DNA of 63,114 nucleotides, counting the filler, from Lophium mytilinum (taxonomy: Eukaryota): the NCBI GenBank assembly GCA_010093605.1. It is 6 parts of 3 records of this genome, joined end to end, with 100 filler letters (N's around TTAATTAATTAA, not from the genome) between each part and the next. Parts side by side here need not be neighbours in the genome. Positions count along the whole stretch, not along the records: positions 1 to 14,574 come from MU004186.1; positions 14,675 to 38,717 come from MU004187.1; positions 38,818 to 41,384 come from MU004187.1; positions 41,485 to 50,503 come from MU004188.1; positions 50,604 to 61,013 come from MU004188.1; 1 more part is not named here. One strand, given 5' to 3'. This document shows, in pieces, positions 3,801 through 61,113 of the stretch. A program made the position numbers and the translations under genes. Under the pieces are notes generated by a model. That model saw nothing but the letters and a program-made list of their open reading frames with translations. It made no database searches and had not been told where the DNA came from. How positions within the stretch are numbered: the first letter of the stretch is position 1; every line of letters starts with the position of its first letter.

Positions 3801-5299
3801 AAAGTAAGAAAAAAAAGAAAGAGTAAATTAGGCGGGCGCTAAAGTAATGCAGGGTATAGTTATATAAACTATATATTATAGAGACCTACTAGTCCTGCCT
3901 AAGGTAAAATATATATATAGTATNNNNNNNNNNNNNNNNNNNNNNNNNNNNNNNNNNNNNNNNNNNNNNNNNNNNNNNNNNNNNNNNNNNNNNNNNNNNN
4001 NNNNNNNNNNNNNNNNNNNNNNNNNNNNNNNNNNNNNNNNNNNNNNNNNNNNNNNNNNNNNNNNNNNNNNNNNNNNNNNNNNNNNNNNNNNNNNNNNNNN
4101 NNNNNNNNNNNNNNNNNNNNNNNNNNNNNNNNNNNNNNNNNNNNNNNNNNNNNNNNNNNNNNNNNNNNNNNNNNNNNNNNNNNNNNNNNNNNNNNNNNNN
4201 NNNNNNNNNNNNNNNNNNNNNNNNNNNNNNNNNNNNNNNNNNNNNNNNNNNNNNNNNNNNNNNNNNNNNNNNNNNNNNNNNNNNNNNNNNNNNNNNNNNN
4301 NNNNNNNNNNNNNNNNNNNNNNNNNNNNNNNNNNNNNNNNNNNNNNNNNNNNNNNNNNNNNNNNNNNNNNNNNNNNNNNNNNNNNNNNNNNNNNNNNNNN
4401 NNNNNNNNNNNNNNNNNNNNNNNNNNNNNNNNNNNNNNNNNNNNNNNNNNNNNNNNNNNNNNNNNNNNNNNNNNNNNNNNNNNNNNNNNNNNNNNNNNNN
4501 NNNNNNNNNNNNNNNNNNNNNNNNNNNNNNNNNNNNNNNNNNNNNNNNNNNNNNNNNNNNNNNNNNNNNNNNNNNNNNNNNNNNNNNNNNNNNNNNNNNN
4601 NNNNNNNNNNNNNNNNNNNNNNNNNNNNNNNNNNNNNNNNNNNNNNNNNNNNNNNNNNNNNNNNNNNNNNNNNNNNNNNNNNNNNNNNNNNNNNNNNNNN
4701 NNNNNNNNNNNNNNNNNNNNNNNNNNNNNNNNNNNNNNNNNNNNNNNNNNNNNNNNNNNNNNNNNNNNNNNNNNNNNNNNNNNNNNNNNNNNNNNNNNTA
4801 TATACTAATAGTATAGATATAATAGAGTAGTATTAGAATATAATTGCCCTCCCTAACTATATAAACTATAGTAGATAAAACCGCCCCCTATAATATAGAT
4901 AAATAAAATAAATATTATATTATATATAAAATATATAAGGTATAGTTATAGTAGTAAATATTACGCTATATTCTATAGTTAAGTAAGCCGCTATCTAGAG
5001 GCTAAATATAAACTAGAAGATTTTAAGGGTATAAAGTATACTACTACTATAGAGTAGTACTAACTATTAAAGAGTAGAGAATAGAACACAAGTAAGAAAT
5101 TAGAATAGTAAAAAGTTAGTAGTACTAAGTAAGTAGGTGTAAACTAATAGTAAGAAAAGTAGTCCTAATTAGAACTATTAGAAAGAAAAAGAAAAAGATA
5201 TTAAGAGATGCTAAACTAAATCTAAAAAGTAGAGTAAGGGCCTCTATAGAAAGCCTTTCTATAAAAACCCTACTAGTTATACCTTACTATTAGACTTCT

Positions 5300-8200
5300 C
5301 TAGCGCTATACTAGTCCCCTCTAATTTACTACTATTTTCTTTACTATTAGAGTTAGTATCTACACCTAATGCCGCGGGCAGTTAGCTAATATTAGAATTA
5401 TTCTTCCGCCTGCGTAGGTCTATTTTTAGTCTAGTAGAGTTTAAAGACTTCTATATAGTAGCTTTCTTCTTAGTAGCCTTTCTTTTATACTAAGGGCGCT
5501 ATTTAGTAATCTCTTTCTCTATTATATACTTATATAGATAATATATAAGGAATTTAGATATAGAGTCTTTCTTAGCTACTTTATTCTTCTTTATAGTAGG
5601 CTTCTTTTTTACGCCTTAGCGCTTCTAACTCTTATTAGTATTACTAGAGGATATAGTCTTTAAGGTTAGCTATAAGGCTCCTTCTATAAATTCTAGCGGG
5701 TTATCTAAGTTACTACTATAGTTACTGTTACACTTAAAGGCAACTTTAGATAGTATAGTAGTAAAATCTAGGTAATTATTAAGATACCCCCTATTTTACT
5801 TATTAGTCTTAGACGGGATATTCTCTATATTAATGTTAGGGGTTTTAATATTCTTCTTATTCTACTTATTACTCTTAGTCTAGTTATTATCTATATTAAT
5901 ATTAGCTTTTAGTAGTAAATAAAAAACTAAATTATCTATAGAATTCTATAAGAAGATAGTAGAAATTCTGCGCTACCTCTTCTTCTATATATTAGGTAAT
6001 AAGATAGAGTCTATAGAAGGGGTTCTAATAAGGCGTCTATTAAAGGTACTAAGAGGGCTAGAAGATAGAGTTAAAGTAAGTTAATAGGCGGAAGTAGAAG
6101 CTACTATAATAGTTAGTACTTAAGTAATATAATAGGTAATGCTAAAGGGCCCTAGTAGAAAGGCTTTCTAAAAAGGCCCTAGAATAAATTCTTATCTATA
6201 TACTTTATAAGAAATAAAGTATTATTTTTATACTCTTTACCTTTAGAGTTATTACTATTTAGCCTACTAAAAGGGTTATTACTATCTATATTACTAAAAA
6301 TAGCGGGCACTTAATATAAAGAGTTATACTCCGGCCTATATTAATAGATAAAAGAGCTATAAGTATTTCTAGTAGTGCTTTTTATAGGGGTAGGCATATT
6401 AGATTTAGTAGAATCTAAGTCTTTAACTATAATAGTAGACTTAGAGTTAAGCTTATACTTCTTAATAATAGCTACTAGTATAGTACTAGCTTTACGCTTC
6501 TACTTTAAAGCTTTACTATTTTATTACTCTAGCGTCTTTAGCTTTAGCTTTAGGGTAGCTTTTACTATAAAATATAGATTAGTAAAGTATAAAGAGGTAA
6601 GTAGGGCTCTAGTAGAAAGCCTTTCTACTAGAACCTATAAGAGTAAACTTACTACTTACAGGATAATACTTAAGCCTTAAACCTAGCTTATTAATATATA
6701 GTTTCTTAGGCGCTCTACTTATACCCTTCTTCTACTCTTCTTCTAATTCTAATTTAGTAAATTTATACGCTTATTCTTCTTAGAACTTATTACTAAACCT
6801 ACTAGACTAAAAAGTTATATTGCCTTGCATAAGGGTTATTAGAAATATAAGAATATTTTATAGAGAGTTAAAGTACTTAATATATAATTCTACTAGTATA
6901 TTTAAAATATCTAGTTTACCTATAATAAGGCGGGGTATAATACTCTTATTATTATAGGTTATCTATATATACTAGCTATCTAGAGTTAGCTTTTTCTTAA
7001 AGGTTTCCTCTACTTTAATCTAGTTAGTATTTAATATAGTAGCAAGACTAGAAAGCGCTATCTATACCTAGCGTAAGAGAGTAAAGGTATTAAATATATC
7101 CTAGATAAAGAATATAGTTACTATAATAGTAAACTTCTAGCTAATCCTATATAAATGCGCTATTATCTACTTCTTAATCTAAATAGAGTCTATAGGGTTA
7201 AAAAGATATATATTATAATAAGTAGACTATAGATTAAGCCTAGCTCTATTAGCCTAGTAACTAGTAATAAGGATCTTTACTTTAGAGTTAGGGTTATTAA
7301 ATAATAAAATAAGGTTATTCTAGTTAGTAGTAGAGAGATTAGAGGCTAATATATAAGTATCTATTTTATAATAGTTAATAATCTTAGTAAGAATTATTTA
7401 CTTATTTAGATAGTTAGTCTAGATAATAACCTTCTCTATATACTTAATAATATTATTGGCTAAATAGTATAGTAGTATAGCTACTTTAGAGGCATTATAA
7501 ATAAAAAGGGCAATAATATAATAAAAGAGTGTAGACTTTACTTTAAAGTCTTTCTAATTAGGGTTAGTTTAGATATTCTTATTCCGGGTAATTTACTTTA
7601 TTATACCTTATAAAACGTCTATTTTCTTTAACTAGTAACTGCTATTATTCTTAAGAGGAATAATTTTTAGGCTATTCTTAATCTTATTACCCTTTAAATC
7701 TAAGACCTTCTCTTATAGATATACTATTATAGCGCGCTTAGAGTAGACTAAAAATAGTGTAGTACTTATAAGATTAAGAGTATATATAGAGCATATATTA
7801 AATATATAAATGCGCTAGCCTATATAGTTCTTAGTAGAAACTATTAATAACTTAAGATAGCTTAGTAATTTATTAGTATAGATAATATAGCCTAGTTTTA
7901 TTAGCTATAGCTTAATTACTTGCGTAACTAACTATAAAAGTAATCCTCTAATTTAGGTAGTAGAATTAGTAGAATTATTTAGGTATATAGAAGGGTATAA
8001 GTAAGTAATTATATACTTACTAAAAATTAAGCATAAATAAAGCCCCTATATAATGCTAGAGAAATATTAGAAAATTAAAGTAAATAAGAGGAGAGATAAG
8101 AGCCCTAGCTAGAAGCCTTTCTACTAGGGCCCTTTATATAATAACTTACAAGTTAAATAAAGGTAGAATAAAATTTTTAAAAGCCTTATATATACTAGAA

Positions 8201-11030
8201 AATTATACCTAAATAGTTATTAGAAAGCTTAAATAGATTATTAGTACCTAGAATAAACTTAGCTTTACTAGGTTTTAAGTAGTATATATAGAATTATAGA
8301 TACTTATCTCTTAGTTCTATAAAAGATATATAAGTAGGTATATTAGTAATACCTATATATAGTAGGGTTCTACTATAGAGTATAGTAAAGTCTAAGTAAA
8401 GCTATAAAGTAGTTAGATAGAGGTTTACTTAGTTGCTTTTAATAAGCTAGCACTTATCTATAAATTAGACGTTAAAATAGCTACTTAAGAGACCGGGCTA
8501 GGTAGAGCTTAAATAATATTTAATCTAGTTCTTTAGCTTAGTAAGATTATTATTACTATACTACTTTAATGCGGGCTAGGGACTATGCTAACTAGCTATT
8601 ACCTAATAGCTGGCAATTATAATACTTTTAGTATTTGCCTTATTTTTAGTATTAAATAAGGGATAGTCCCTAGTTAAGGTATTATATAGAAATATAGCGC
8701 TATAGAAAGTAACTTAGCCCTTTAATAAATAGATATAGAGCTTAAGTTTAGAACTAAACTTTATAAGTTTATTTACTATTTAGTATACTAAAATAGAAGG
8801 TATAAGAAAAAGAAAGGGCTTTACTAGCTCTAAGTCTTTCTTATCTATAACTTTACGCTAGCGCTTAGTAATAAGCTATAATTAAATTAGTAGATACTAA
8901 AAGAAACTATTAGAGAAGTAGTAGAAAGGCTTTNNNNNNNNNNNNNNNNNNNNNNNNNNNNNNNNNNNNNNNNNNNNNNNNNNNNNNNNNNNNNNNNNNN
9001 NNNNNNNNNNNNNNNNNNNNNNNNNNNNNNNNNNNNNNNNNNNNNNNNNNNNNNNNNNNNNNNNNNNNNNNNNNNNNNNNNNNNNNNNNNNNNNNNNNNN
9101 NNNNNNNNNNNNNNNNNNNNNNNNNNNNNNNNNNNNNNNNNNNNNNNNNNNNNNNNNNNNNNNNNNNNNNNNNNNNNNNNNNNNNNNNNNNNNNNNNNNN
9201 NNNNNNNNNNNNNNNNNNNNNNNNNNNNNNNNNNNNNNNNNNNNNNNNNNNNNNNNNNNNNNNNNNNNNNNNNNNNNNNNNNNNNNNNNNNNNNNNNNNN
9301 NNNNNNNNNNNNNNNNNNNNNNNNNNNNNNNNNNNNNNNNNNNNNNNNNNNNNNNNNNNNNNNNNNNNNNNNNNNNNNNNNNNNNNNNNNNNNNNNNNNN
9401 NNNNNNNNGTGCGCTTAGTATATATAATTACTAACTTAAGCTTCTATTTTATAGTGCCGGTAATATACTTAGTGCTAGTAACATTAATATTATCTTTCTT
9501 CTTATTAACTAGGTTTATAGTAATTTCCTCTTTAGATAACCCCTAGATAGAGTTATCTGCGTTAACCTCTATATTAATAGCCGCGAGTTCCTCCTTAGTA
9601 AAATAAGAGGGCGACTACTAATAGAGAGGCCTAGAAGGGCCTTAATAGAAAGGCTTTCTATTAATATTCTTACTACTATAAGTAATAGTTTTAGCTAGAG
9701 TCTTAGGTACTAGTACTAGACTAAGCTTTATTTTTTAAAGAATATTCTATATCTTAATTTAGTTCTTAGTATAGGTAGTTCTACTAGCTTAAGATAGGCT
9801 ACTCTTAAATTCTATATTTTTCTTTAATTTAAAGAAGATTCTAAGCGCTTTATTATTAGTAATATTAGCGTAGTTATATAAAAACCTACTAAACCGCTTC
9901 TAGTAGTAATTAAAGCATTAACTAATAAATTAAGCTACCTAATCTATAGGTTTATAGTTATCTATCTTAGGCTAAGAAGTAGTATATCGCTATAGATTAT
10001 GCAACTCGCTAGTCTTAAAAGCATTTAGAATAGTAGTAAAACTAGCCTCTTAATTCTAACTATATATAGCGCGCTTTAGGTCTAAATATCTATCCTTATA
10101 CTTATTCTAAATTACTTAGAAATTAGGCTTAGCTAGAATTACTTTAAGTTCTACTTTTATTTAACTATAAAGCTTAGCTAACTTTATTCTACTAATATAT
10201 AGTATATTTACTAAGGCCTATAACTTCTCTAACTCTTTATCTTTTCTACTACTAGTAACTAGCGCTTAAAGCTTCTCTTACTCTTTATTAGAGTTCTTAG
10301 GGATATTAGAGTTATTACTATAGTTATTACTATCTAGATAAACTACTTTACTATTTACTAATATAAGCGTCTCTAGATCTATTATAGTAGCCGGCTAATT
10401 GCGCTTTAAATTAATATAGGCATTAACCCCTAATTTAATAACTAGTAGAGAGGTAGAATATAGATCTTCTAGTATTTTAGAAGAAGTAGATTATTTCTTA
10501 TAGCTATCTACTAGGTTAGTTATAGATAATATGCGTAGGAATATAACCTTTACTACTACTTTACTAGGGTCTCTATTACTTAAGGTATTTATAGCTAGCC
10601 TATTAATATATTAGCTTATCTTAAATAATAGAAAAAAGAAGGCAGGTAAAGAGCCCTAGTAGAAAGGCTTTCTACTAAGACCCTTTATACTATACCGGGT
10701 ATTTTTAGTATTATTATTTTCTTAATATTTTCTACTACCGCATCTTTAAAATTAAGGTAGACTAATCTACTAAGACTAGTAAAGGGCCCTAGCAGGAAGC
10801 CTTTCTATAATAATTCTTATAATACGCTTACCTTACTCTACTCTTAGAGAAATTATAATAGAATAAACCTATTAGTAGAATTAGCTATAATATAACTTAA
10901 TTTTACCTACTAGATAGTAAACTTACTAAAAGGCTTAACTGCTAGCTAAAAAGATGCCTAAAATAGGCTAATTGCAGCTCTAATATAGCTAGAAAGCTGC
11001 TAACTATTATCTAGTAAGTAAGAAACTAGC
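5300..11030 (-). pseudogene. SNF2/SWI2-family (SF2) helicase/ATPase relic, intron-containing, copy A
   Basis: RIP-reversed minus-strand translation gives motif II FVDECQLIK (8432-8464), motif III LYSGTP (~8363-8380), SKVATLL...EKVII(W)TNYP (~7405-7495) and motifs V-VI FNDPNSKVKILITSY..AGLNLQ..C..V.LFDP.....EKQ.IARLYRIGQ (~7135-7305). Motif I lies in the gap here but is visible in copies B and C. Confidence 0.88.
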
Positions 11031-11142
11031 GCGCAACTATTCCGCAGGTAGCTAGATAAGTAGAAGTAATAGAGGTATAGTAGTATAGAAGAAGAGGTTA
11101 GTATAGAAGTAAGAAAGTTAAAGCTACTAGGTAGTAAATAAG

Positions 11143-11173
11143 TTTATAGGCGGCCGGGCTAATAGCCGCCGGC
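11143..11173 (-). promoter_or_regulatory. Putative SNF2-gene promoter: GC-rich inverted repeat directly upstream of TATAAA
   Basis: Copy B 45303-45336 reads tttata-g-GCGGCCGG-gcta-a-tagc-cg-CCGGCCGC; the same structure is at 58867-58900. On the minus strand the hairpin is followed by TATAAA and a CT-rich leader. Confidence 0.5.
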
Positions 11174-11379
11174 TACTAAGATGCTAAGTCTTTAATAGTA
11201 AACTACTTAAGTTAACTCTTAAGATTAATATACTAGCTATATATTATATAAGGTTAAAATATTATAGGTATAAATATATTAGCGTTTTACTTAATTTTAC
11301 TAATATATAAGTATTTATAGTTAATCTATAATACTATACTATATATTATCTAGTTCTAGTAATATAGTACTACGCTAAA

Positions 11380-14300
11380 ATAGGTTAATAGAATATCGCG
11401 TGTTATTATATAACTATTTACCTATAGTATAAGAGTCTTACTAGAAAGCCTTTCTACTAGGGCCCTTTACTACTTATATTAAAAACGCCTATTATTACCT
11501 CTCTTTTTATATATATTACTACTATATACCTACTAGATAAGTATTTACGTACTATATAAGAGCCTAGCTAGAAGCCTTTCTACTAACGCCCTTTATATCT
11601 TATACTAATTACTTTACTACCTTTATTATTAATAACTCTTCTTTATAACGCCGCCCCTACTAGTCTACTTACTAATACTTAACTCTATATACTTCTTAGA
11701 ACTCTTCTACTTAAGCCTTATTCTTCTAGGCCTCTTACTCTAAGTTCTCTAAGTCCTCTATTTCTAAGCTATAGTTACCTAAACTCTCTTTATACTTATA
11801 CTTTTTATCTAATAACTAACTACCTATATCCCCCTCTTACTCTTTCTATATTACTAAATAATTCTAGAATTCTTTAATTATTAGAATTCTGCCTAAATAA
11901 ACCCTTAGGCTATTTAGTATATAGTACTTAAACCTAAGCTAAATATATTTTAGATTAACTTAACCCCTAGGGCCTATAGTATTATCCTCTATTATTATTA
12001 TCTTTAACTTTTTTAGGCTTTCCTAGGTTATATTCTATACTTTCTTTACAACTATATCTATGCTAAGATTAACTACCCCCCCTTAAGCCTATTCTTTAAT
12101 ATACTAGCTTAGTTAGGCTATTTTATAGTAGTAGCTATTTAGTAGTTATATATAGATCTACTATATATTTATAATTATATCTCTTCCCCTAATATTATCT
12201 TATATATCTTTAGAGTTATTTAGTTTAGCTTAACGCGTAGTTAAAATTTTATTATTATTATATTTTAAAAGAACCTAGAGTAATAATGCGGCTCTTACTT
12301 ATAGATTATTAAGGAATTATTCTACTATTTTTAGTAATGCTTTATTTCTAATTATTGTATTTAATCTTCGCAATTTTATATAGAAGGGACTATTATTCTA
12401 TTTTTAAGTTTCTATAGCTAGATCTATAATATTAAATAGCGGCTAGACTTAATTAATCTAGTATCTAGTTAAGTATATTAGATAATTTATATTACTATTT
12501 CTAGCTATATTCTATATATAGGCGTAGCTTACTATAAGTTCTAACTTTCTATATAGCCTTATAAGTATATTAAAATAAAGCGTAACTATAGATTTTTATA
12601 GAATACTCTTAAGAAATTAGTTATATAGTTCTTTACTCTTCTATTATATTTTAGTATTTCTATCTTCTTCTATATACTATCTACTTAGAAGCTTATATAT
12701 ATTAGTATAGTATACCTTAATAATAAGCGCAGCTGCCTTACCTATCTATAGTAGTGCTAATTGCTAATCTTTTTATACTCTAGTTCTATTTTCGCGTTAA
12801 ATAGCTAGCGTATACTATACTATAATACTATACTATAGATACTATATCTCTATATCCTTTTTAGTAAAAGATATCTAGATTTAAGCTTTAGTAAATATAG
12901 CTTAGAATTAATTCCTAAGGCTAGCTTATAGTTAATTAACGCCTTAAGGGCTAAGTTATAGAGGCGTTATTATCTAATCTAAGTACTCTAACTTTAGCTA
13001 ACCTATACTATACTTCTTAAGGGAGTCTAATAATCTAAGGCTATATAAGGTTATAGAATTCTAGAGGTTTTTTTAATTTATCTACTCTTTTTTCTATAGT
13101 ATAGATAATTAAGTAGAATTACTATATCTAGTAGTAATTTATATAAGGCGGATATAAAGAGATGCTAAATAACTATTTACTAGCTATTTATCTAGTATTA
13201 CTATATACCTAGTATTACACCCGGGGGTAACCTAAAGAGATAGTACCTAGAAAAGAAATACCTAGTAATTAAGGTTTATAATAGTAAAGGTATTAACTTC
13301 TTTTATAGAAAGAATCTAGTAGAGGTAATAAGGCTTACTACTATTATCTAGCCTATCCTTTATAGTAAATTTAGGACTTATACTTTCTTTAAGTTACTTA
13401 AGTATAGTAAAAAGTACTTAGAACTTAGTTTAAACCCTATAGAATAAGTATCTATCTCTCTAGAGTATAGTATAGTAGCGTTAGAAAATAGTAGTAAGAC
13501 TATTCTAAAGCTATTTTCTTTTTAATAATTCTCTAGAGCTACCTGCCGCTTTAAACTACTGCTTAATTATTTTAGTTAAGAATATAAGAGCTTCTAGTTA
13601 AGTATTATAAAAGGGCGTAATATTCTTAATAGATAACTTAAGTATAATCTTATTACTATTATAGATTTTATTATATACTATACTACTAATATAGCTATAG
13701 TTACCTACTTAAAGCTCTACTATTAGAGATAACGCGCCCTAGGTAAGATAGTAGAGGTATAATATTATATAAATCTTTTCTTTTCCGCTATTATAGAAGT
13801 AAGTAGTCTAGTAGTTATTATAGCTAGTTTTATATAGAAAGGTAACCCCGGTATCTAGCTAATTAGTAGTTAGAATATCTTTATATCTATAGTTAACCTA
13901 TATTCCCTTATCTAGTATATTAATTAGGTTTTTATTAAAAGTAGTAGTTAAAGTATATAGTAGCTAATCCCTACTTTAAATTATACTTAAGGACTTATAT
14001 ACTATTTTTAGATTATAATCTAAGACTACTAGAAATACTCCTTTAAATAAATCTTTAGGTATAGTATCTATTCCTATAAAGTTTTCTATATTATAAAGAA
14101 CTTAGTTCTAGAATTCTTAGAGTTAATACTATAGAATTATATACTTAGTATTAATATAAGAGTCTCTAGATAATATTATATATTTTTCTTTCTTAATACT
14201 TACTTTACTCTATATAATATTAAAACTATATAGTATATACTACTACTTATTAGATGTTAGAGTATACTTTACTACAGGTAAGATAATATTATTAAGCTAA

Positions 14301-14574
14301 GCTACTTATATTATATCTAGTAGATATAAAGTATTACCCTTCTACTTATTTAGTATTAGCATCTAGAGGAAAAATATATAAGTTTTAAATTAATACTTAT
14401 ACCTATACCCTATATAAAGCTGCTTTATTATATAGAGCTTATAGCCGCGTATTATAATGCGTTAGTTTTAAGTAATACTTTAGAGAAAGAATAGTTATAG
14501 AGATAGTAAGAAGTATAAATTATAGGCCGCTAAAGTAGAGATACTAATAATAACGCTATTAATATTATATACTT
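11380..14574 (-). pseudogene. 3' part of the long unknown-function gene (see 45540-50928), copy A
   Basis: Colinear with 45540-48735. Minus-strand frame with an acidic tract near 11700-11850 and two palindrome-bearing introns near its end. Confidence 0.6.
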
Positions 14575-41384: not shown

Positions 41385-41484
41385 NNNNNNNNNNNNNNNN
41401 NNNNNNNNNNNNNNNNNNNNNNNNNNNNTTAATTAATTAANNNNNNNNNNNNNNNNNNNNNNNNNNNNNNNNNNNNNNNNNNNN

Positions 41485-44400: not shown

Positions 44401-45200
44401 CTCTTCTACTACTAGTAACTAGCGCTTAAATCTTCTCTTACTTTTTATTAGAGTTCTTAGGGACATTAGAGTTGTTACTATAGTTATTACTATCTAGATA
44501 AACTACTTTGCTATTTACTAATGCGAGTGTCTCCGGATCTATTGCAGTAGCCGGCTAATTGCGCTTTAAATTGACATGGGCATTAACCCTTAATTTAGTA
44601 ACTAGTAGGGAGGTAGAATTTAGATCTTCTAGCACTTTAGAAGAAGTGGACTATTTCTTATAGCTATCTACTAGGTTAGTTGTAGGTAATATGCGCAGGG
44701 ATGCAACCTTTACTACTGCTTTACTAGGGTCCCTATTACTTAAGGTATTTATAGCTAGCCTATTAATGTATTAGCTTATCTTAAATAATAGAAGAAAGGA
44801 GGCAGGCAAAGGGCCCTAGTAGGAAGGCTTTCTACTAAGACCCTTTACACTATGCCGGGTATTTTTAGTATTATTATTTTCTTAACATTTTCTGCCGCCG
44901 CATCTTTAAAATTAAGGTAGACTAATCTACTAAGACTAGTAAAGGGCCCTAGTAGAAAGCCTTTCTATAATAATTCTTATAATACGCTTACCTTACTCTA
45001 CTCTTAGAGAAATTGCGATAGAATAAACCTATTAGCAGAATTAGCTATAATATAACTTAATTTTACCTACTAGATAGTAAACTTACTAAAAGGCTTAACC
45101 GCTAGCTAAAAACACGCCTAAAATAAGCTAATTACGGCTCTAACGTAGCTAGAAAGCTGCTAACTATCGTCTAGTAAGTAAGAAACTAGCGCGCAACTAT
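41485..45200 (-). pseudogene. SNF2-family helicase relic, copy B (N-terminal and ATPase part)
   Basis: LKWWQITG (Q-motif-like, ~43162-43185), GGALI(V/A)DEVGIGK motif I (43082-43120), intron 42983-43051, KPFLFLMPP.LV.Q.ANEL motif Ia (~42852-42908), IIIASYQ, DECQ, SGTP. Confidence 0.9.
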
Positions 45201-45539
45201 TCCGCAGGTAGCTAGATAAGTGGAAGTAATAGGGGTGCGGTAGTATAGAAGGAGAGGTTAGTATAGGAGTAAGAAAGTTAAAGCTGCTAGGCGGTGGATA
45301 AGTTTATAGGCGGCCGGGCTAATAGCCGCCGGCCGCTAAGACGCTAAGCCTTTAACGGTAAACTACTTAAGTTAACTCTTAAGGTTAATGTAATAGCTAT
45401 ATATTATATAAGGTTAAAATATTACGGGTGTAAATATATTAGTGTTTTACTTAATTTTACTAATATATAAATATTTGCGGTTAATCTATAATACTATACT
45501 ACGTATTACCTAGTTCTAGTAATACAGCACTACGCTAAG

Positions 45540-52100: not shown

Positions 52101-52523
52101 AAGGTTAATTTTCTCTATATTAAACTTGCTTCTCTCTACCTAACTCTAACCCTCTAGCCCCTATAATATATAATTATTATTAAGTAGTATAGCTTAGCTT
52201 CTATATAAATCTAAATAGACTATATCTACTTAGTATATCTAGTATTAGCCTAGCGCTATTATAGTATATACTAGTACTACTTAAAATATTCTAAGTATTA
52301 TTAGTATATATAAAAATAAAGATATATATTTAATATTTAAATAGCCTAACCCTTATTAAATTAGCGTCCCTATATAAAATATACGCTAGTAATACTAAAT
52401 TATATAGAGAACTCTTAGAAACTAACCCTTTTTATTACTACTGTTGTTTACTACCGTTATTTACTACTATTACCTAATGATACTAGTAATAATATTATTA
52501 CTAGCTACCATTGTCATTACAGT

Positions 52524-55500
52524 TAGGCTTCTTTTTTGCGCCTTAGCGCTTCTAACTCTTATTAGTATTACTAGAGAATATAGTCTTTAAGGTTAGCTAT
52601 AAGGTTTTTTTTATAAATTCTAGCGGGTTATCTAAGTTACTACTATAGTTGCTGTTATACTTAAAGGTAACTTTAGATAGCGTAGTAGTAAAATCCGGGT
52701 AATTATTAAGATACTCTCTATTTTACTTATTAGTTTTAGACGGGACGTTCTCTATATTAATGTTAGGGGTTTTAATATTCTTCTTATTCTACTTATTACT
52801 CTTAGTCTAGTTATTATTTATATTAATATTAGCTTTTAGTAGTAAATAAAAAACTAGATTATCTATAGAATTCTATAAGAAAATAGTAGAAATTCTACGC
52901 TACCTCTTCTTTTATATATTAGGTAATAGGATAGGGTCTATAGAAGGGGTTCTAATAAGGCGTCTATTAAAGATACTAAGAGGGCTAAAAGGTAGAGTTA
53001 AAGTAGATTAATAGGCAGAAGTAGAAGCTGCTATAATAGTTAGTATTTAAGTAAAATAATAGGTAATACTAAAGGGCCCTAGTAAAAAGGCTTTCTAAAA
53101 AGGTTCTAGAATAAATTCTTACCTATATACTTTATAAGAAATAAAGTATTATTCTTATACTCTTTACCTTTAGAGTTATTACTATTTAGCCTACTAAAAG
53201 GGTTATCGCCGTCTATATTACTAAAAATAGCGTCTACTTAATATAAAAGATTATACTCTAGCCTATATTAATAGATAAAAGGGCTATAAGCCTATCTAGT
53301 AGCGCTCTTTATAGGGGTAGATATATTAGATTTAGTAGAATCTAAGTCTTTAACTATAATAGTAGACTTAGAGTTAGGCTTATACTTTTTAATAGTAGCT
53401 GCTAGTATAGTACTAGCTTTATACTTCTACTTTAAAGCTTTACTATTTTATTACTCTAGTATCTTTAGCTTTAGCTTTAGGGTGGCTTTTACTATAAAAT
53501 ATAGATTAGTAAAGTATAAAGAGGTAAGTAGGGCTCTAGTAGAAAGCCTTTCTACTAGAATCTATAAGGGCGAACTTACTACTTATAGAATAATACTTAA
53601 GCCTTAAATCTAGCTTATTAACACGCGGTTTTTTAGGTGCTCTACTTATATCCTTCTTCTACTCTTCTTTTAATTCTAATTTAGTAAATTTATACGCTTA
53701 TTCTTCTTAAAACTTATTACTAAACCTACTAGACTAAAAAGTTATATTACCTTATATAAGGGTTATTAGAAATATAAGAATATTTTATAGAGAGTTAAAG
53801 CGCTTAATATATAATTCTACTAGTATATTTAAAATATCTATTTTACCTATAATAAGGCGGGGTGTAATACTCTTATTATTATAGGTTACCTATATATACT
53901 AGCTATCTAGGGTTAGCTTTTCCTTAGAGGTTCCCTCTACCTTAATCTAGTTAGTATTTAATATAGTAGTAAGACTAGAAAGCGCTATCTATACCTAGCA
54001 TAAGAGAGTAAAGGCATTAAATATATTCTAGATAAAGAACGCGGTTACTATAATAGTAAACTTCTACCTAATTCTATATAAACGCGCTATTACCTACTTC
54101 TTAATCTAAATAGAGCCGGTAGGGTTAAAAAGATATATATTATAATAAGTAGACTATAGATTAAGCCTAGCTCTATTAGCCTAGTAACTAGTAATAAGAA
54201 TCTTTACTTTAGAGTTAGAGTTATTAAATAATAAGATAAGGTTATTCTAGTTAGTAGTAGAGAGATTAGAGGCTAATATATAAGTATCTATTTTATAATA
54301 GTTAATAATTTTAGTAAGAATTATTTACTTATCTAGGTAGTTAGTCTAGATAATAACCTTCTCTATACGCTTAATAACGTTATTAGCTAAATAGTATAGT
54401 AGTATAGCTACTTTAGGGGCATTATAGATAAAAAGGGTAATAATATAATAAAAGAGTATAGACTTTACTTTAAAGTCTTTCTAATTAGGGTTAGTTTAGA
54501 TATTCTTATTCTAGGTAACTTACTTTATTATGCCTTATAAAACGTCTATTTCCTTTAACTAGTAACCGCTATTATTCTTAAGAAGAATAATTTTTGGGCC
54601 GTTCTTAATCTTATTACCTTCTAAATCTAAGACCTTCTCTTGCAGATATACTATTATAGCGCGCTTAGAGTAGACTAAAAATAGTGCAGTGCTTATAAGG
54701 TTAAGGGTATAAATAGAGTATATATTAAATGTATAGATATACTAGCCTACGCAGTTCTTAGTAGAAACTATTAATAACTTAAGGTAGGCTAGTAATTTAT
54801 TAGTATAGATAATATAGCCTAGTTTTATAGGCTATAGCTTAATTACTTGCGTAACTAACTGCGGAAGTAATTCTCTAATTTAGGTAGTAGAATTAGTAGA
54901 ATTATTTAGGTATATAGAAGGGTATAAGTAAGTAATTATATACTTACTAAAAATTAAGCGTAAATAAAGTCCCTATATAATTCTAGAGAAATGTTAGAAA
55001 ATTAAAGTAAATAAAAGAAGAGATAAGGGCCCTAGCTAGAAGCCTTCCTGCTAGGGCCCTTTATATAATAACTTACGGGTTAAATAAAGGTAGAATAAAA
55101 TTTTTAAAAGCCTTATATATATACTAGAAAATTATACCTAAATAGTTATTAGAAAGCTTAAACGGATTATTAGTACCTGGAATAAACTTAGCTTTACTAG
55201 GTTTTAAGCGGTACGTGTAGAATTATAGATGCTTATCTCTTAGTTCTATAAAAGATATATAAGTAGGCATATTAGTAATACCTATATATAGCGGGGTCCT
55301 ACTATAGAGTATAGTAAAGTCTAAGTAAAGCTATAAAGTAGTTAGGTAGAGGTTTACTTAATTACTTTTAATAAGCTAGTACTTATCTATAAATTAGATA
55401 TTAAAATAGCTACTTAAGAGACTAGGCTAGGTAGAGCTTAGGTAATATTTAACCTAGTTCTTTAGCTTAGTAAGATTATTATTACTATACTACTTTAATA

Positions 55501-58500
55501 CGGGCTAGAAACTGTGCTAACTAGCTATTACCTAATAGCTGGCGATTATAATACTCTTAGCATTCGCCTTATTTTTAGTATTAAATAAGGGATAGTCCCT
55601 AGTTAAGGTATTATATAGAAATATAGCGCTATAGAAAGTAACTTAGCCCTTTAATAAATAGATATAGAGCTTAAGTTTAGAACTAAACTTTATAAGTTTA
55701 TTTACTATTTAGTGTACTAAAATAGAAGGTATAAGAAAAAGAAAGGGCTTTACTAGCCTAGAGTCTTTCTTATCTATAACTTTGCGCTAGCGCTTAGCAA
55801 TAAGCTATAATTAAATTAGTAGATACTAAGAGAAACTATTAAAGGGGTAGTAGAAAGGCTTTCTATTAATACTCTTTAAAGAGAAATTACTTATATATCT
55901 AATAAGGGTAGCTATTAAAAATATCTTTCTAATACTAACCTTATCTATAATTAAAGCCCTACTAAGAAAGCCTTTCTATATAATATAGTATATATAGTAA
56001 GCCCCGGTAATCTACTACTACCTTAAGTAAATATTACTATTTATTATAATAAGGCGGGGTTCCCGATAGTTATAAATATGTAGGGCCTTTATTACTTCTT
56101 TTAGGTTATCTAGCTAATAGGCTTTATTAGTTATTAGAAGGTGGAGTGTACTCTATGTTATAAGATCTGCCGCAGTTAGTATAGTAAAGGGGATAATATT
56201 CTTTACATTAATAGCGGTAGCCCTTATATTAGCCTCTATATCTTAGGCATATTTAATACTATCTAGATTAGCGTACTTATTCTTATTAAGATCTGCAGCG
56301 CGCATATTTAGGTGCTGTTTAACGGCATATATAAAATCTTCTACTATCTTTCTAATTACCTAATATGCGTTGTATTAAAACTTTAATAAGTTCTAGTTAA
56401 TTATTGCTCTAGTGCGCTTAGTATATATAATTACTAACTTAAGCTCCTATTTTATGGTGCCGGTAATATACTTAGTGCTAGTAATATTAATATTACCTTT
56501 CTTCTTATTAACTAGGTTTATAGTAATTTCCTCTTTAGATAACCCCTAGATAGGGTTATCTGCGTTAACCTCTATATTAATGGCCGCGAGTTCCTCCTTA
56601 GTAAAATAAGAGGGCGACTGCCAACGGGGAGGCCTAGAAGGGCCTTAACGGGAAGGCTTTCTATTAATATTCTTACTACTATAAGTAATAGTTTTAGCCG
56701 GGGTCTTAGGTGCCGGTGCTAGACTAAGCTTTATTTTTTAAAGAATATTCTATATCTTAATTTAGTNNNNNNNNNNGGGGTTTCTAATAGTTATAAATGC
56801 GTAGGGCCTTTATTACTTCTTTAAGGTTATCTAGCTAATAGGCTTTATTAGTTATTAAAAGGCGGAGTGCACTCTATATTATAAGATCTACCGCGGTTAG
56901 TATAGTAAAGGGGATAATATTCTTTATATTAATAGCGGTAGCCCTTATATTAGCCTCTATATCTTAGGCATGTTTAATACTATTCTAATTAGCGTACTTA
57001 TTCTTATTAAGATCTACAGCGCGCATATTTAGGTGCTATTTAATAGTATATATAAAATCTTCTACTATCTATCTAATTACCTAATATGCGTTGTATTAAA
57101 ACTTTAATAAGTTCTAGTTAATTATTACTCTAGTGCGCTTAGCATATATAATTACTAACTTAAGCTTCTATTTTATAGTGCCGGTAATATACTTAGTACT
57201 AGTAATATTAATATTACCTTTCTTCTTATTAACTAGATTTATAGTAATTACCTCTTTAGATAACCCCTAAATAGGGTTATCTACGTTAACCTCTATATTA
57301 ATAGCCGCAAGTTCCTTCTTAGTAAAATAAGAGGGCGACTACTAATAGAGAGGCCTAGAAGGGCCTTAATAGAAAGGCTTTCTATTAATATTCTTACTAC
57401 TATAAGTAATAGTTTTAGCCGGGGTCTTAGGTACTAGTGCTAGACTAAGCTTTATTTTTTAAAGAATATTCTATATCTTAATTTAGTTCTTAATATAGAT
57501 AGTTCTACTAGCTTAAGATAGGCTACTTTTAAATTCTATATTTTTCTTTAATTTAAAGAAGATTCTAAGCGCTTTATTATTAGTAATATTAGTATAGTTA
57601 TATAAAAATCTACTAAACCGCTTCTAGTAGTAATTAAAGCATTAACTAATAAATTAAGCTACCTAATCTACGGGTTTATAGTTATCTATCTTAGGCTAAG
57701 AAGTAGTATATTACTATAGATTATATAACTTGCCAGTCTTAAAAGCGTTTAGAATAGTAGTAAAACTAGCCTCTTAATTCTAACTATATACGGCGCACTT
57801 TAGGTCTAAATACCTATTCTTATACTTATTCTAAATTGCTTAGAAATTAGGCTTAGCTAGAATTACTTTAAGTTCTACTTTTATTTAACTATAAAGCTTA
57901 GCTAACTTTATTCTACTAGTATATAGCGTGTTTACTAAGGCCTATAACTTCTCTAACTCTTTATCTTTTCTACTACTAGTAACTAGCGCTTAAAGCTTCT
58001 TCTACTCTTTATTAGAGTTCTTAGGAATATTAGAGTTATTACTATAGTTATTACTATCTAGATAAACTACTTTACTATTTACTAATATAAGCATCTCTAG
58101 ATCTATTATAGTAGCCGGCTAATTACGCTTTAAATTGCTATAGGTATTAACCCCTAATTTAGTAACTAGTAGGGAGATAGAATTTAGATTTTCTAGCACT
58201 TTAGAAGAAGTAGATTATTTCTTATAGCTATCTACTAGGTTAGTTATAGGTAATATACGCAGGAATGCAACCTTTACTACTACTTTGCTAGGGTCCCTAT
58301 TACTTAAGGTATTTATAGCTAGCCTATTAATATATTAGCTTATCTTAAATAATAAAAGAAAGAAGGCAGGTAAAGGGCTCTAGTAGAAAGGCTTTCTACT
58401 AAGACTCTTTATACTATGCCGGGTATTTTTAGTATTATTATTTTCTTAATATTTTCTACCGCCGCATTTTTAAAATTAAGGTAGACTAATCTACTAAGAC

Positions 58501-58760
58501 TAGTAAAGAGCCCTAGCAGGAAGCCTTTCTATAATAATTCTTATAATATACTTACCTTACTCTACTCTTAGAGAAATTATAATAGAATAAACCTATTAGT
58601 AGAATTAGCTATAATATAACTTAATTTTACCTGCTAGATAGTAAACTTACTAAAAGGCTTAACTGCTAGCTAAAAAGACGCCTAAAATAGGCTAATTACG
58701 GCTCTAATATAGCTAGAAAGCTGCTAACTATTATCTAGTAAGTAAGAAACTAGCGCGCAA
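52524..58760 (-). pseudogene. SNF2-family helicase relic, copy C (motifs I-VI all present)
   Basis: Motif I ~55925-55962, II ~55365-55395, III ctc tat agt agg acc ccg (~55292-55309), IV ~54340-54365, V-VI ~54060-54230. Confidence 0.88.
55027..55059. promoter_or_regulatory. Best-preserved copy of the dispersed 33-bp palindrome (function unknown)
   Basis: gggccctagctagaag-c-cttcctgctagggccc, 14 of 16 arm positions pair. It lies inside a minus-strand GTAAGT...CTAAC...TAG intron. Confidence 0.85.
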
Positions 58761-61113
58761 CTATTTTATAGGTAGCTAGATAAGTAGAAGTAATAGGGGT
58801 ATAGTAGTATAGAAGAAGAGGTTAGTATAAAAGTAAGAAAGTTAAAGCTACTAGGCGGCGGATAAGTTTATAGGCGGCCGGGCTAATAGCCGCCGGCCGC
58901 TAAGACGCTAAGCCTTTAATAGTAAACTACTTAAGTTAACTCTTAAGGTTAATATAATAGCTATATATTATATAAGATTAAAATATTGCGGGTATAAATA
59001 TATTAGTGTTTTACTTAATTTTACTAATATATAAACGTTTATAGTTAATCTATAATACTATACTATATATTACCTAGTTCTAGTAATATAGTACTACGCT
59101 AAGATAGGTTAATAGAATATCGCGCGTTATTATATAACTATTTACCTATAGTATAAGAGTCTTACTAGAAAGCCTTTCTACTAGAGCCCTTTACTACTTA
59201 TATTAAGTACTTCTATTATTACCTCTCTTTTTATATATATTACTACTATATATCTACTAGATAAGTATTTATATACTATATAAGAGCCTAGCTAGAAGCC
59301 TTTCTACTAATACTCTTTATATCTTATACTAATTACTTTACTACCTTTCTTATTAATAATTCTTCTTTATAACGCCGCCCCTACTAGTCTATCTATTAAC
59401 GCTTAAATCTATATACTTCTTAAAACTCTTCTACTTAAGCCTTATTCTTCTAGGCCTCTTACTCTAAGTTCTTTAAGTCCTCTATTTCTAAGCTATAGTT
59501 ACCTAAACTCTCTTTATACTTATACTCTTTATCTAATAACTAACTACTTATATCCCCCTNNNNNNNNNNAACCTAAGCTAAATATATTTTAGATTAACTT
59601 AACCCCTAGGGCCTATAATATTATTCTCTATTATTATTATCTTTAACTTTTCTAGGCTTCCCTAGGTTATATTCTATACTTCCTTTATAACTATATCTAT
59701 GCTAAGGTTAACTACCCCCTCTTAAGCCTATTCTTTAATATATTAGCTTAGTTAGGCTATCTTATAGTAGTAGCTATTTAGTAGTTATATATAGATCTAC
59801 TATATATTTATAATTATATCTCTTTCCCTAATATTATTTTATATATCTTTAGAGTTATTTTATTTAGCTTAACGCGTAGTTAAAATTTTATTATTATTAT
59901 ATCTTAGAAGAACCTAGAGTAATAAGGTAGCTCTCGCTTATAGATTATTAAGGAATTATTCTACTATTTTTAGTAACGCTTTATTTCTAATTATTACATT
60001 TAATCTTTATAATTTTATATAGAAGGGACTATTATTCTATTTTTAAGTTTCTACAGCTAGATCCGTAATATTAAACAGCGGCCAGACTTAATTAATCTAG
60101 CGTTTAGTTAAGTGCCTTAGATAATTTATATTACTATTTCTAGCTATATTCCGCACGTAGGCATAGCTTACTATAAGTTCTAACTTTCTATATAGCTTTA
60201 TAAGTATATTAGAATAAAGCGTAACTATAGATCTATTTAGAATACTCTTAAGAAATTAGTTGTGTAGTTCTTTACTCTCTTATTATATCTTAGTATTTCT
60301 ATCTTCTTCTATATACTATCTACTTAGAAGCTTATATATATTAGTATAGTATGCCTTAATAATAAGCGCAGCTACTTTATCTATCTATAGCGGTGCTAAT
60401 TACTAATCTTTTTATACTTTAGTTCTATTTTCGCGTTAAATAGCTAGTATATACTATACTATAATGCTATACTATAGATACTATATCTCTATATCCTCCC
60501 TAGTAAAAGATACCTAGATCTAAGCTTTAGTAAATATAGCTTAGAATTAATTTCTAAGGCCGGCTTACAGTTAATTAACACCTTAAGGGCTAAGTTATAG
60601 GGGCGTTGTTATCTAATCTAAGTACTCTAACTTTAGCTAAGCTATACTATACTTTTTAAGGGAGTCTAATAACCTAAGGCTATATAAGGTTATAGAATTC
60701 TAGGGGTCTTTTTAATTTATCTACTCTTTTTTCTATAGTATAGATAATTAAGTAGAATTACTATATCTAGTAGTAATTTGCGCAAGGTAGATATAAAGAG
60801 ATACTAAATAACTATTTACTAGCTATTTATCTAGTATTACTATATGCCTAGTATTACGCCCGGGGGTAACCTAAAGAGATAGTACCTAGAAAAGAAATAC
60901 CTAGTAATTAAGGTTTATAATAGTAAAGGTATTAACTTCTTCTATAGAAAGAACCTAGTAGGGGTAATAAGACTTACTACTATTATCTAGCCTATTCTTT
61001 ATAGTAAATTTAGNNNNNNNNNNNNNNNNNNNNNNNNNNNNNNNNNNNNNNNNNNNNTTAATTAATTAANNNNNNNNNNNNNNNNNNNNNNNNNNNNNNN
61101 NNNNNNNNNNNNN

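What the first reader, a model, noticed from the sequence alone, without database searches (positions are those of the whole stretch)
4799..61013. Tandem telomere-linked multi-gene element built around a SNF2-family (not RecQ) helicase
Seen: a unit of at least ~13 kb in three same-orientation copies (A, B, C; B-C offset ~12.8 kb). All readable genes are on the minus strand and point to the telomere: repeat-domain gene > AT-hook gene > SNF2 helicase > (copy A side only) ~3 further ORF relics > 60-bp palindrome array > telomere. The helicase shows SNF2 hallmarks (GGAL.ADEVGIGK, KP.L.L.P, DECQ, SGTP, EKVII, GLNLQ, Q..AR..RIGQ). Established: described fungal telomere-linked helicases (Magnaporthe TLH1, Ustilago USHER/UTASa, S. 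pombe tlh1) are RecQ-like. No transposase, RT or tyrosine recombinase was recognised in the assembled part of the unit. Inference: a selfish or virus-like multi-gene subtelomeric element with its own repeated cis-sites, amplified at chromosome ends and silenced by RIP.
Basis: partly seen in the sequence, partly recalled or inferred. Interest (0 to 1): 0.85.

Follow-up and report, generated by a model that had tools for sequence, protein, structure and literature searches.

The report
Dead SNF2-helicase repeat near a telomere
Three mutation-wrecked copies of a many-copy fungal repeat, each built around one long gene for an unusual SNF2-type helicase, lie in a chromosome-end scaffold, but nothing shows that they are tandem, telomere-specific or multi-gene.

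Summary
The three same-orientation copies are real: A 5597-14574, B 41485-48736, C 52523-61013. They are 93-94% alike, and 94-97% of their differences are RIP-type transitions. The helicase is SNF2-type, not RecQ. Plain translations gave almost nothing. A profile of the three wrecked copies found 22 natural proteins (best E 1.7e-26), and 15 of the 22 carry Pfam SNF2-rel_dom. A RIP-aware alignment places these proteins only on A, B and C. The "DECQ" and "SGTP" motifs are natural in the relatives.

- The shared unit is about 9 kb, not 13 kb.
- Each copy lies on a different supercontig. These are joined by N44-TTAATTAATTAA-N44 linkers, and three copy ends coincide with contig ends, so the tandem order is not shown.
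- Only copy A is scaffold-linked to the telomere.
- Two DNA runs of one sample hold over 2,200 diverged contig pieces of the unit, so the family has many copies.
- The "AT-hook gene" is the N-terminal half of the SNF2 gene. The "AT-hook" itself is the translation of a 33-nt palindrome that recurs in the unit.
- No second gene, transposase, RT or recombinase was found.

This scan noted the same repeat before on other DNA of this genome (e1-7554415, e1-7554416, e1-7585904). The closest described analogue is X3X3R8 of Stagonospora nodorum.

The parts
1..95 (.). Telomere repeat (CCCTAA)n, 15.8 units
117..607 (.). Subtelomeric 60-bp tandem array, each unit with a 30-nt palindrome. It is not part of the repeated unit.
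5597..14574 (-). Copy A of the repeat unit. Its left end is sharp and its right end is cut by the end of supercontig c1. It holds a 475-N gap at 8934-9408. It is the only copy scaffold-linked to the telomere.
41485..48736 (-). Copy B, the least RIP-mutated. It starts at the first base of supercontig c4, inside the helicase C-lobe. It holds a 450-N gap at 47439-47888. Similarity to A stops at 48736 only because A's contig ends there.
52523..61013 (-). Copy C. It has the same sharp left end as A, and its right end is cut by the end of supercontig c5.
42161..44647 (-). Copy B, SNF2 gene relic, exon 1 in one frame. It covers the family-specific N-terminal region (P0002 residues 49-586, score 430 half-bits) running straight into the SNF2 N-lobe (P0025 580-875, score 177; P0001 1-231, score 349).
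41485..42162 (-). Copy B, SNF2 exon 2, cut by the contig start (P0025 949-995 and 1117-1227)
55004..58037 (-). Copy C, SNF2 exon 1 (P0002 106-586, P0001 1-231, P0025 580-875). The frame is broken by the 711-nt internal repeat and the 10-N gap.
53524..55011 (-). Copy C, SNF2 exon 2 with the helicase C-lobe (P0031 72-456 in one frame, score 175; P0025 1121-1368, score 138; P0030 to 53524)
7005..10313 (-). Copy A, SNF2 gene relic: 10313-9426 (P0002 106-404), a gap, 8884-8171 (N-lobe), then 8078-7938 and 7679-7005 (C-lobe)
43079..43111 (-). Motif I (Walker A) in RIP-compatible form in B, read as LIVDKVSIRKI. Its twin in C lies at 55922-55954. Relatives read ADKVGTGKT (P0002) or ADEVGIGKT (P0025).
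42521..42544 (-). Motif II in B, read as NKC*LIKS and corresponding to DECQ.IK. Twins start at 55387 (C) and 8458 (A). Natural relatives read FADECQ.
54064..54180 (-). Motifs V (ANRARLNL, corresponding to AGGxGLNL) and VI (*VIARLYRIR*, corresponding to QxIARxxRIGQ) in C, 28 codons apart. Twins in A start at 7253 and 7169.
42184..42216 (.). 33-nt GC-rich palindrome filling the short intron between exons 1 and 2. Its twin in C lies at 55025-55061. Family members start at 5238, 6147, 6604, 8100, 9637, 10651, 11433, 43797, 44811, 44944, 45593, 53074, 53531, 55842, 56640, 57361, 58375 and 59157.
43797..43829 (.). Palindrome copy inside exon 1. It lies in a poorly aligned linker where the relative P0002 has no such motif.
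44700..48736 (.). Upstream part of the unit (B coordinates), at least 3.9 kb. It holds palindromes and short internal repeats but no recognisable protein relic.
56056..57487 (.). 711-nt repeat on both sides of a 10-N gap in C, 93.7% alike. It is either an unmerged overlap of two copies or a true duplication.
41385..41484 (.). One of five N44+TTAATTAATTAA+N44 linkers. The others lie at 14575-14674, 38718-38817, 50504-50603 and 61014-61113. They separate the supercontigs that hold A, B and C.

Best explanation
A, B and C are three RIP-killed members of a many-copy repeat family of this fungus.

Shown: each unit is at least about 9 kb. Its core is one long gene for a divergent SNF2-family ATPase. 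That gene has a family-specific N-terminal region of about 540 codons, running in the same exon into the N-lobe (motifs ADxVGxGKT, DECQ, SGTPL). A short intron filled by a GC-rich palindrome follows, and then an exon with the C-lobe (GLNLQ, Q..AR..RIGQ). About seven copies of the same 33-nt palindrome and about 4 kb of unidentified upstream DNA complete the unit. RIP has put stop codons throughout, so none of the three copies can work.

Inferred:
- The family once multiplied as a selfish repeat. It is either an unclassified mobile element or the cargo of a larger element whose mobilising gene is not in the assembled part.
- Copies now lie in RIP-degraded AT-rich blocks, one of which is this chromosome end.
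- The apparent tandem, telomere-directed order comes from contigs that broke inside the repeat and were then placed side by side in a pseudomolecule.
For: Copies and RIP:
- Self-blastn shows the three copies.
- In a 1916-column three-way alignment, 178 of 187 variable columns are C/T or G/A.
- 94-97% of pairwise differences are transitions, enriched at CpA/TpG.

SNF2 identity:
- On raw X-read translations the only Pfam hits at E up to 10 were SNF2-rel_dom on C's N-lobe (E 0.16) and Helicase_C on C's C-lobe (E 0.085). The other two pieces tried gave Hisat_C at E 0.13 on A's C-lobe and nothing on B's N-lobe.
- RIP-compatible motifs I, II, V and VI lie colinear on the minus strand of the copies. 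In 200 codon shuffles motif I occurred 0 times, motif VI 21 times, and in-frame V-to-VI pairs 0 times.
- A profile of the three wrecked copies found 22 proteins at E<=1e-3, 6 of them at <=1e-10. Of the 22, 15 carry SNF2-rel_dom at E<=0.01 and 9 exceed the curated cut-off.
- One cluster holds Plenodomus lingam CBX99413.1/CBX99414.1 and a 1601-aa form, P0025. P0025 has SNF2-rel_dom at 35.5 bits.
- My RIP-aware codon-to-residue alignment places P0025 only on A, B and C, at 131, 177 and 161 half-bits. Six shuffles reached at most 54.6.
- P0002, P0001, P0031 and P0026 likewise hit only these loci.
- A family profile hits 56 PDB sequences (Fft3, SsoRad54, ISWI, DDM1, Rad5, INO80 and others). None is named RecQ.

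One gene:
- P0002 aligns to B 44647-43025 in the same frame as the N-lobe.

Many copies:
- 2360 and 2234 contig pieces at 80-100% likeness lie on 9 kb. Their differences are nearly all transitions.

Assembly:
- Linkers separate the copies, and three copy ends coincide with contig ends.

Discrete end:
- A and C share a sharp left end beside unrelated flanks.
Against: - No genome is held, so I could not see where the other copies lie. They might also be subtelomeric.
- Counts of contig pieces are an indirect measure of copy number. Both runs come from one sample, which may be the sample the window was assembled from.
- The right end of the unit is not assembled, so terminal repeats and target-site duplications could not be looked for.
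- Most stop codons are shared by A, B and C. This fits duplication of DNA that was already dead as well as it fits saturated RIP.
- P. lingam carries the related gene as one locus on a 1.6-Mb contig, which would suit a host gene.
- The RIP-aware matrix is my own device. It was checked only by shuffles and by its silence elsewhere in the window.
- About 4 kb of the unit remains unexplained.
Confidence: 0.72

Rival explanations
1. One reading: a telomere-linked, tandemly amplified, multi-gene selfish element. It would be an SNF2 counterpart of the RecQ-type TLH and Y' units and would spread between chromosome ends.
For: - Copy A lies 5.6 kb from the chromosome end, and its gene points to the telomere.
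- All three copies have one orientation in the scaffold.
- Palindrome relics also lie at 721-741 and 5238-5270, between A and the telomere.
- The helicase is truly SNF2-type.
Against: - B and C lie on separate linker-joined supercontigs that break inside the repeat.
- The spacer between B and C is not shared with the other copies.
- The family has many diverged copies.
- Earlier notes place the repeat on other pieces of the genome. I did not check these.
- Only one gene is shown.
- No loose end shown carries telomere repeats (12 shown, 88 more not shown).
Confidence: 0.1
2. A host SNF2-like gene, not a mobile element. It was caught in segmental duplications of AT-rich or subtelomeric DNA, and RIP then destroyed the copies.
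For: - No transposase, RT or recombinase was found in the unit.
- P. lingam has the related gene as one locus on a 1.6-Mb contig.
- Most stops are shared between the copies.
- Hane and Oliver explained X3X3R8 this way, as an endogenous gene cluster (PMC3017866, passages read).
Against: - Thousands of diverged contig pieces point to tens of copies.
- A and C share a sharp end beside unrelated flanks.
- Relatives are few, unnamed and patchy: 8 at E<=1e-5 and none of 880 aa or more. That is unlike a housekeeping gene.
- A private palindrome family travels with the unit.
Confidence: 0.15
3. The SNF2 gene is cargo of a larger DNA transposon (a giant cut-and-paste or Starship-like element) whose transposase lies beyond the assembled ends or in the gaps.
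For: - The right end of the unit is unassembled in all three copies.
- B's right flank 48737-50503 is also covered by many contig pieces.
- Earlier notes of this scan describe Plavaka-type elements with helicase genes in other fungi (e1-7559671). I did not test this.
Against: - Pfam found nothing in six frames of B 45000-50503, though RIP makes this test weak.
- A's and C's flanks differ from B's.
Confidence: 0.12

Closest known systems
X3X3R8 repeat family of Stagonospora (Parastagonospora) nodorum (Hane and Oliver 2010, PMC3017866; passages read, supplements not seen)
   Same: It is a RIP-affected, multi-copy repeat of a Pleosporales fungus built around Rad5/SNF2-like helicase genes. It could only be recognised after allowing for RIP.
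   Different: X3X3R8 holds tandem helicase genes, a Rad6-type ubiquitin-conjugating enzyme and unknown ORFs, in nine copies. Here only one SNF2 gene is shown and no UBC relic was found. No P. nodorum protein appeared among the relatives. Sequence relatedness to X3X3R8 was not tested.
Uncharacterised SNF2-like proteins of Pleosporales: Plenodomus lingam JN3 CBX99413.1 + CBX99414.1 (LEMA_P086530.1), Coniothyrium glycines ACN47E_002046, Epicoccum nigrum B5807_11600, Phaeosphaeriaceae sp. GQ44DRAFT_721741 (names)
   Same: The helicase core is homologous and colinear (P0025 residues 580-875, 949-995, 1121-1368). The closest relatives share the DECQ and SGTPL motifs.
   Different: These are intact genes, annotated as hypothetical. 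Their N-terminal regions differ from the window's, which instead matches the metagenome ORFs P0002 and P0004. Their copy number and neighbours could not be seen.
Telomere-linked RecQ helicase units (Magnaporthe TLH, Ustilago, S. cerevisiae Y', M. graminicola subtelomeric RecQ; as cited in PMC4522978, passages read)
   Same: It is a helicase gene in repeated, low-GC DNA next to a telomere.
   Different: The helicase here is SNF2-type, not RecQ. Linkage to telomeres is shown for one copy only.
Canonical SNF2 remodellers with solved structures (Fft3/Fun30, SsoRad54, ISWI, CHD1L, DDM1, Rad5, INO80)
   Same: The family profile matches them around motifs II-III, at E 3.7e-13 to 9e-4.
   Different: Only a stretch of about 60-80 positions matches. 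No subfamily stands out. P0025 alone finds no solved structure at E<=1e-3, and its Helicase_C score is below Pfam's cut-off.

Membership tests
SNF2 family ATPases | N-terminal RecA lobe with motifs I, Ia, II, III (Pfam SNF2-rel_dom) | tested here: met
RIP-compatible motifs I and II lie at colinear places. The only Pfam hit on C's N-lobe is SNF2-rel_dom, at E 0.16 and below the cut-off. Of 22 proteins found with the copies' profile, 15 carry it and 9 exceed the cut-off.
SNF2 family ATPases | C-terminal RecA lobe with motifs IV-VI (Pfam Helicase_C) | tested here: met
   Motifs V and VI are RIP-compatible with zero mismatches, 28 codons apart, in A and C. No such pair occurred in 200 shuffles. 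Helicase_C is the only hit on C's C-lobe, at E 0.085. In the relatives P0025 and P0024 it scores 17.5 and 19.1 bits, below the 23.5 cut-off.
SNF2 family ATPases | Assignment to a named subfamily (Rad5/16, Fun30, Rad54 and so on) | tested here: inconclusive
   The PDB profile search hits many subfamilies over one short stretch. No RING or other accessory domain was found by Pfam in P0025. No tree was built.
Telomere-linked helicase (TLH / Y') units | RecQ-type helicase core | tested here: not met
   All named relatives and PDB matches are SNF2-type. A RIP-aware scan with E. coli RecQ gave nothing above shuffles, but that reference is distant, so the test is weak.
Telomere-linked helicase (TLH / Y') units | Copies at many chromosome ends, next to the telomere repeat | not testable with these tools
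   No genome is held. One copy (A) is scaffold-linked to a telomere.
X3X3R8-type helicase repeat | RIP-affected multi-copy unit with an SNF2-like helicase gene | tested here: met
X3X3R8-type helicase repeat | Tandem helicase genes plus a Rad6-type ubiquitin-conjugating enzyme gene | tested here: not met
   There is no second SNF2 relic: 6 of 30 flank tests exceeded the highest of 12 shuffles, by at most 7.5 half-bits, far below the true hits. There is no UBC hit by Pfam. RIP lowers the power of these tests.
Known transposon classes (LTR, Helitron, cut-and-paste, tyrosine-recombinase elements) | Transposase, RT, HUH or tyrosine-recombinase gene inside the unit | tested here: not met
   Pfam found none on X-read translations of C (six frames), B 39700-44986 (chosen frames) and B 45000-50503 (six frames). 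An RT relic outside the unit was found by the same method at E 1.6e-12, so the method has some power.
Known transposon classes (LTR, Helitron, cut-and-paste, tyrosine-recombinase elements) | Defined termini (TIR or LTR) and target-site duplication | not testable with these tools
   The left end is sharp. The right end is cut by contig ends in A and C, and no second copy reaches beyond B 48736.

The most novel reading that the evidence does not exclude
The unit is an unclassified fungal mobile element. Its only protein is a divergent SNF2-like ATPase with a private N-terminal domain, and its conserved GC-rich hairpins (in the intron, the coding linker and the upstream DNA) are the cis-sites through which it is copied. 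That would be a way of multiplying that uses none of the known transposase, RT or recombinase families.
Probability: 0.2. Interest if true: 0.75.

Novelty: new member of a known kind. Interest (0 to 1): 0.35.

Why it matters
The case shows that a helicase relic too RIP-mutated for Pfam or PDB searches can still be identified. Two routes worked: a profile of its own copies, and a RIP-aware alignment. It also links a many-copy repeat of this fungus to a small, unnamed SNF2-like family of Pleosporales.

If the family proves to be self-mobilising, it would be a new kind of eukaryotic mobile element. If not, it is one more example of helicase genes amplified and then destroyed in AT-rich fungal DNA.

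It is also a caution. Order and tandem arrangement in linker-joined pseudomolecules should not be read as biology.

Tried and rejected
- Plain X-read translations gave no Pfam family at E<=0.01 in six frames of C and none relevant in B (only Med6 at E 0.016). They gave no PDB match at E<=10 and no homologue among 4825 word-sharing candidates.
- RIP-aware alignment with E. coli RapA and RecQ gave nothing above shuffles. Both references are too distant to count as evidence.
- Stop-density maps and a purine/pyrimidine codon-class score separated coding from non-coding too weakly to annotate the flanks.
- Pfam on 12 low-stop stretches elsewhere gave only an RT relic (20722-21777) and a weak RNase H hit.
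- Pfam on six frames of B 45000-50503 gave nothing.
- Two metagenome scans and one viral-contig scan found no relative, so I could not see the neighbours of relatives.
- P0025 found no protein of 880-2802 aa and no solved structure on its own.
- The AlphaFold model of the N-terminal region (P0002 with P0004) had mean pLDDT 35.7 and was not used.
- No RNA holder is listed among the runs. The run guessed to be RNA (X3) laid nothing.
- A joint skipping 42908 to 49203/49207 rests on one contig per run with 20-21 letters on a side. I did not use it.
- The protein-atlas search did not take the X-read translation.
- Look-ups of earlier findings by sequence and among relatives gave nothing.
- Two paper searches found no described SNF2-type telomere-linked helicase element in fungi (listings read, plus passages). 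This is not proof that none is in print.
Full report
WHAT IS THERE

The window begins with (CCCTAA)n at 1-95. A 60-bp tandem array follows at 117-607, and each of its units holds a 30-nt palindrome. All 63 kb look RIP-mutated. GC is 0.16-0.35. TpA/ApT is 1.58-2.09 in all 22 bins, and (CpA+TpG)/(ApC+GpT) is at most 0.37. No ORF of 90 codons free of N exists between 38 and 62 kb.

Self-blastn shows three same-orientation copies: A 5588-14574, B 41485-48736 and C 52514-61013, at 91-95% identity. In a three-way alignment of 1916 columns, 178 of 187 variable columns are C/T or G/A, and B and C have no indels. Over all ungapped blocks, transitions make up 365 of 376 (B/C), 211 of 225 (A/C) and 322 of 336 (A/B) differences, enriched at CpA and TpG. 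B keeps the unmutated base most often.

HOW MUCH OF THE ARRANGEMENT IS REAL

The shared unit is about 9.0 kb. This is C 52523-61013 minus a 721-base internal repeat with its gap, plus the 1.2 kb that only A and B share. The 3.8 kb between B and C, the DNA right of A and the DNA right of C share nothing.

The window is a pseudomolecule. Five spacers of N44 + TTAATTAATTAA + N44 cut it into six supercontigs. From general knowledge, such all-frame stop linkers are used to string contigs together. I did not check this for this assembly. A ends exactly at the end of the first supercontig. B starts exactly at the start of the fourth, inside the helicase. C ends exactly at the end of the fifth. This is what assemblers do at many-copy repeats. 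Tandem order, orientation and the 12.8-kb offset are therefore not established, and only A is scaffold-linked to the telomere.

C also holds a 711-nt repeat on both sides of a 10-N gap, 93.7% alike. It may be an unmerged overlap of two different copies or a true duplication.

A and C share a sharp left end beside unrelated flanks. The right end is not assembled in any pair of copies.

THE HELICASE

Plain translations with X at stops gave nothing in Pfam at E<=0.01, nothing in PDB sequences and nothing in the word-indexed protein search. On short pieces at E up to 10, the only Pfam hit on C's N-lobe was SNF2-rel_dom (E 0.16), and the only hit on C's C-lobe was Helicase_C (E 0.085). A's C-lobe gave only Hisat_C at E 0.13, and B's N-lobe gave nothing.

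I then scanned for motifs, accepting a codon if any pre-RIP codon (T from C, A from G) encodes the wanted residue. On the minus strand, with zero mismatches, this found:
- motif I at 55954 and 43111 (A's copy falls in a gap);
- motif II at 55387, 42544 and 8458, and nowhere else in the window;
- motifs V and VI at 54180/54096 and 7253/7169, 28 codons apart.

In 200 codon shuffles motif I occurred 0 times, motif VI 21 times, and an in-frame V-to-VI pair 0 times. My motif III pattern did not match; relatives explain why below.

A profile of the three wrecked copies (alignment A1) was searched against 1.84 billion representatives. It found 22 proteins at E<=1e-3, six of them at <=1e-10, with the best at 1.7e-26. 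Of these 22:
- 15 carry SNF2-rel_dom at E<=0.01, nine of them above the curated cut-off;
- one has only ResIII;
- six have no family.

One cluster holds Plenodomus lingam JN3 CBX99413.1 ('SNF2 N-terminal domain-containing') and CBX99414.1 ('Helicase C-terminal domain-containing'). It also holds a 1601-aa form, P0025, which has SNF2-rel_dom at 657-892 (35.5 bits) and Helicase_C at 1212-1326 (17.5 bits, below the cut-off).

I built a log-odds matrix that scores each observed codon against each residue. It sums over possible pre-RIP codons, with a mutation chance of 0.9 in the CpA/TpG context and 0.25 elsewhere, set beforehand from the composition. With it, P0025 aligns only to A, B and C on the minus strand, at 131, 177 and 161 half-bits. 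Six shuffles reached at most 54.6 over the whole window in six frames. Lower values just left of 41485 are decay tails: the traceback ends at 41485. The match is colinear in all copies, covering P0025 580-875, 949-995 and 1121-1368. P0001, P0002, P0026 and P0031 also hit only these loci.

The closest natural relatives read FADECQ and SGTPLY. P0025 reads ADEVGIGKT and P0002 reads ADKVGTGKT.

A profile of 16 family members hits 56 distinct PDB sequences at E<=0.01 (Fft3, SsoRad54, ISWI, CHD1L, DDM1, Rad5, INO80, Chd1, SWR1, Rad26 and others). None is named RecQ, and no subfamily stands out.

ONE GENE, NOT THREE

P0002 is a 599-aa ORF from a metagenome contig with no Pfam family. It aligns to B 44647-43025 in one frame, at 430 half-bits over 555 columns. 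Of these columns, 123 are identical as read, and the window row holds 31 stops. This frame is the same one that continues into the N-lobe.

The 'AT-hook' peptide RKPSR*GPSRP is the translation of a 33-nt palindrome at 43797-43829. It lies in a poorly aligned linker where P0002 has no such motif.

After exon 1 comes a short intron nearly filled by the same palindrome (B 42184-42216, C 55025-55061). Exon 2 follows: P0031 aligns to C 55011-53959 in one frame.

Upstream of the gene, at least 3.9 kb of B (44700-48736) shows no protein relic:
- Pfam found nothing in six frames.
- In 30 tests of flanks against six family proteins, six exceeded the highest of 12 shuffles, by at most 7.5 half-bits. I treat these as noise but cannot exclude a faint relic.
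- The codon-class score gave no signal.

THE PALINDROME

A RIP-tolerant search for GGGCCCTAGTAGAAAGGCTTTCTACTAGGGCCC gave 19 matches with at most four mismatches. Six lie in A, five in B, seven in C and one at 5238, just left of A. Twenty shuffles gave none. A core copy also lies at 721-741.

The C-terminal tail of the relative P0001 reads GGLQEAFLQPP at the place of the intron. A palindrome of this kind would encode exactly that peptide. I did not see its DNA.

COPY NUMBER

Two DNA runs of one sample hold the stretch. Laid on B with its right flank (9019 bases), they give 2360 and 2234 short contig pieces. In the first run 504 pieces are at least 99% alike, 884 are 95-99%, 806 are 90-95% and 166 are below 90%. 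Their differences are nearly all transitions. This points to a many-copy, diverged family, and B's right flank is repeated too. The figure is indirect, and the sample may be the source of the assembly.

Earlier notes of this scan describe the same kind of repeat (an SNF2 gene with 39-40-nt palindromes in its introns) on other pieces of this genome: e1-7554415, e1-7554416 and e1-7585904. I confirmed the palindrome and the SNF2 gene here. I did not confirm the identity of the families, because sequence look-ups gave nothing.

RELATIVES

With P0025's helicase core as query, eight shorter proteins scored E<=1e-5: Coniothyrium glycines, P. lingam, Epicoccum nigrum, a Phaeosphaeriaceae species, three unnamed ones and a partial Aspergillus indologenus protein. 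None of 880-2802 aa was found. The family is small, unnamed and mostly Pleosporales, which does not look like a housekeeping SNF2 gene. No tree was built, and the neighbours of relatives could not be fetched.

VERDICT

The observation of three copies and an SNF2-type helicase stands. The unit size, the tandem order, the telomere specificity and the multi-gene content do not.

The most likely reading is three dead members of a many-copy SNF2-gene repeat, one of which lies next to a telomere. How the family multiplied is open. The closest described case is X3X3R8 of S. nodorum (PMC3017866, passages read; its supplementary gene lists were not seen and might show whether the helicases are related).

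Noticed in passing
window 20722-21777 (+) and 26547-27941 (-): These are RIP-mutated LTR-retrotransposon relics in opposite orientations between copies A and B. RVT_1 scores E 1.6e-12, RT_RNaseH_2 scores a weak E 0.0078, and an integrase-like stretch follows. They show that the DNA between the copies is other dead repeats.
   Followed up: partly
window 14575-14674, 38718-38817, 41385-41484, 50504-50603, 61014-61113: Five identical spacers of N44 + TTAATTAATTAA + N44 join supercontigs. Order and orientation across them are unverified, for any finding in this window.
   Followed up: yes
P0001 residues about 205-225, against window 42161-42230: A natural relative's ORF reads through the intron site as GGLQEAFLQPP, the peptide a GC-rich palindrome would encode. 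The hairpin therefore seems conserved at the same intron in an unmutated relative. Its DNA was not seen.
   Followed up: partly
window 15294-16567 / 34220-35493, and 33059-34126 / 35489-36557: A second repeat family (93-95% identity) lies inside the second supercontig. It is unrelated to the SNF2 unit and was not identified.
   Followed up: no
window 721-741 and 5238-5270: Copies of the unit's palindrome lie outside the unit, between copy A and the telomere. They are either relics of a further degraded unit or independent insertions of the hairpin.
   Followed up: no
window 25292-25452 and 26188-26411: These are short tandem arrays (periods 40 and 27/81) in the retrotransposon-rich stretch. 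In translation they give a repeated GFIE(R/L)ASNNSF peptide.
   Followed up: no
window 42908 to 49203/49207: One contig per run joins these two places and skips about 6.3 kb, with 7-11 other letters between them. Only 20-21 letters lie on the shorter side, so it is too weak to read as a deletion variant.
   Followed up: no
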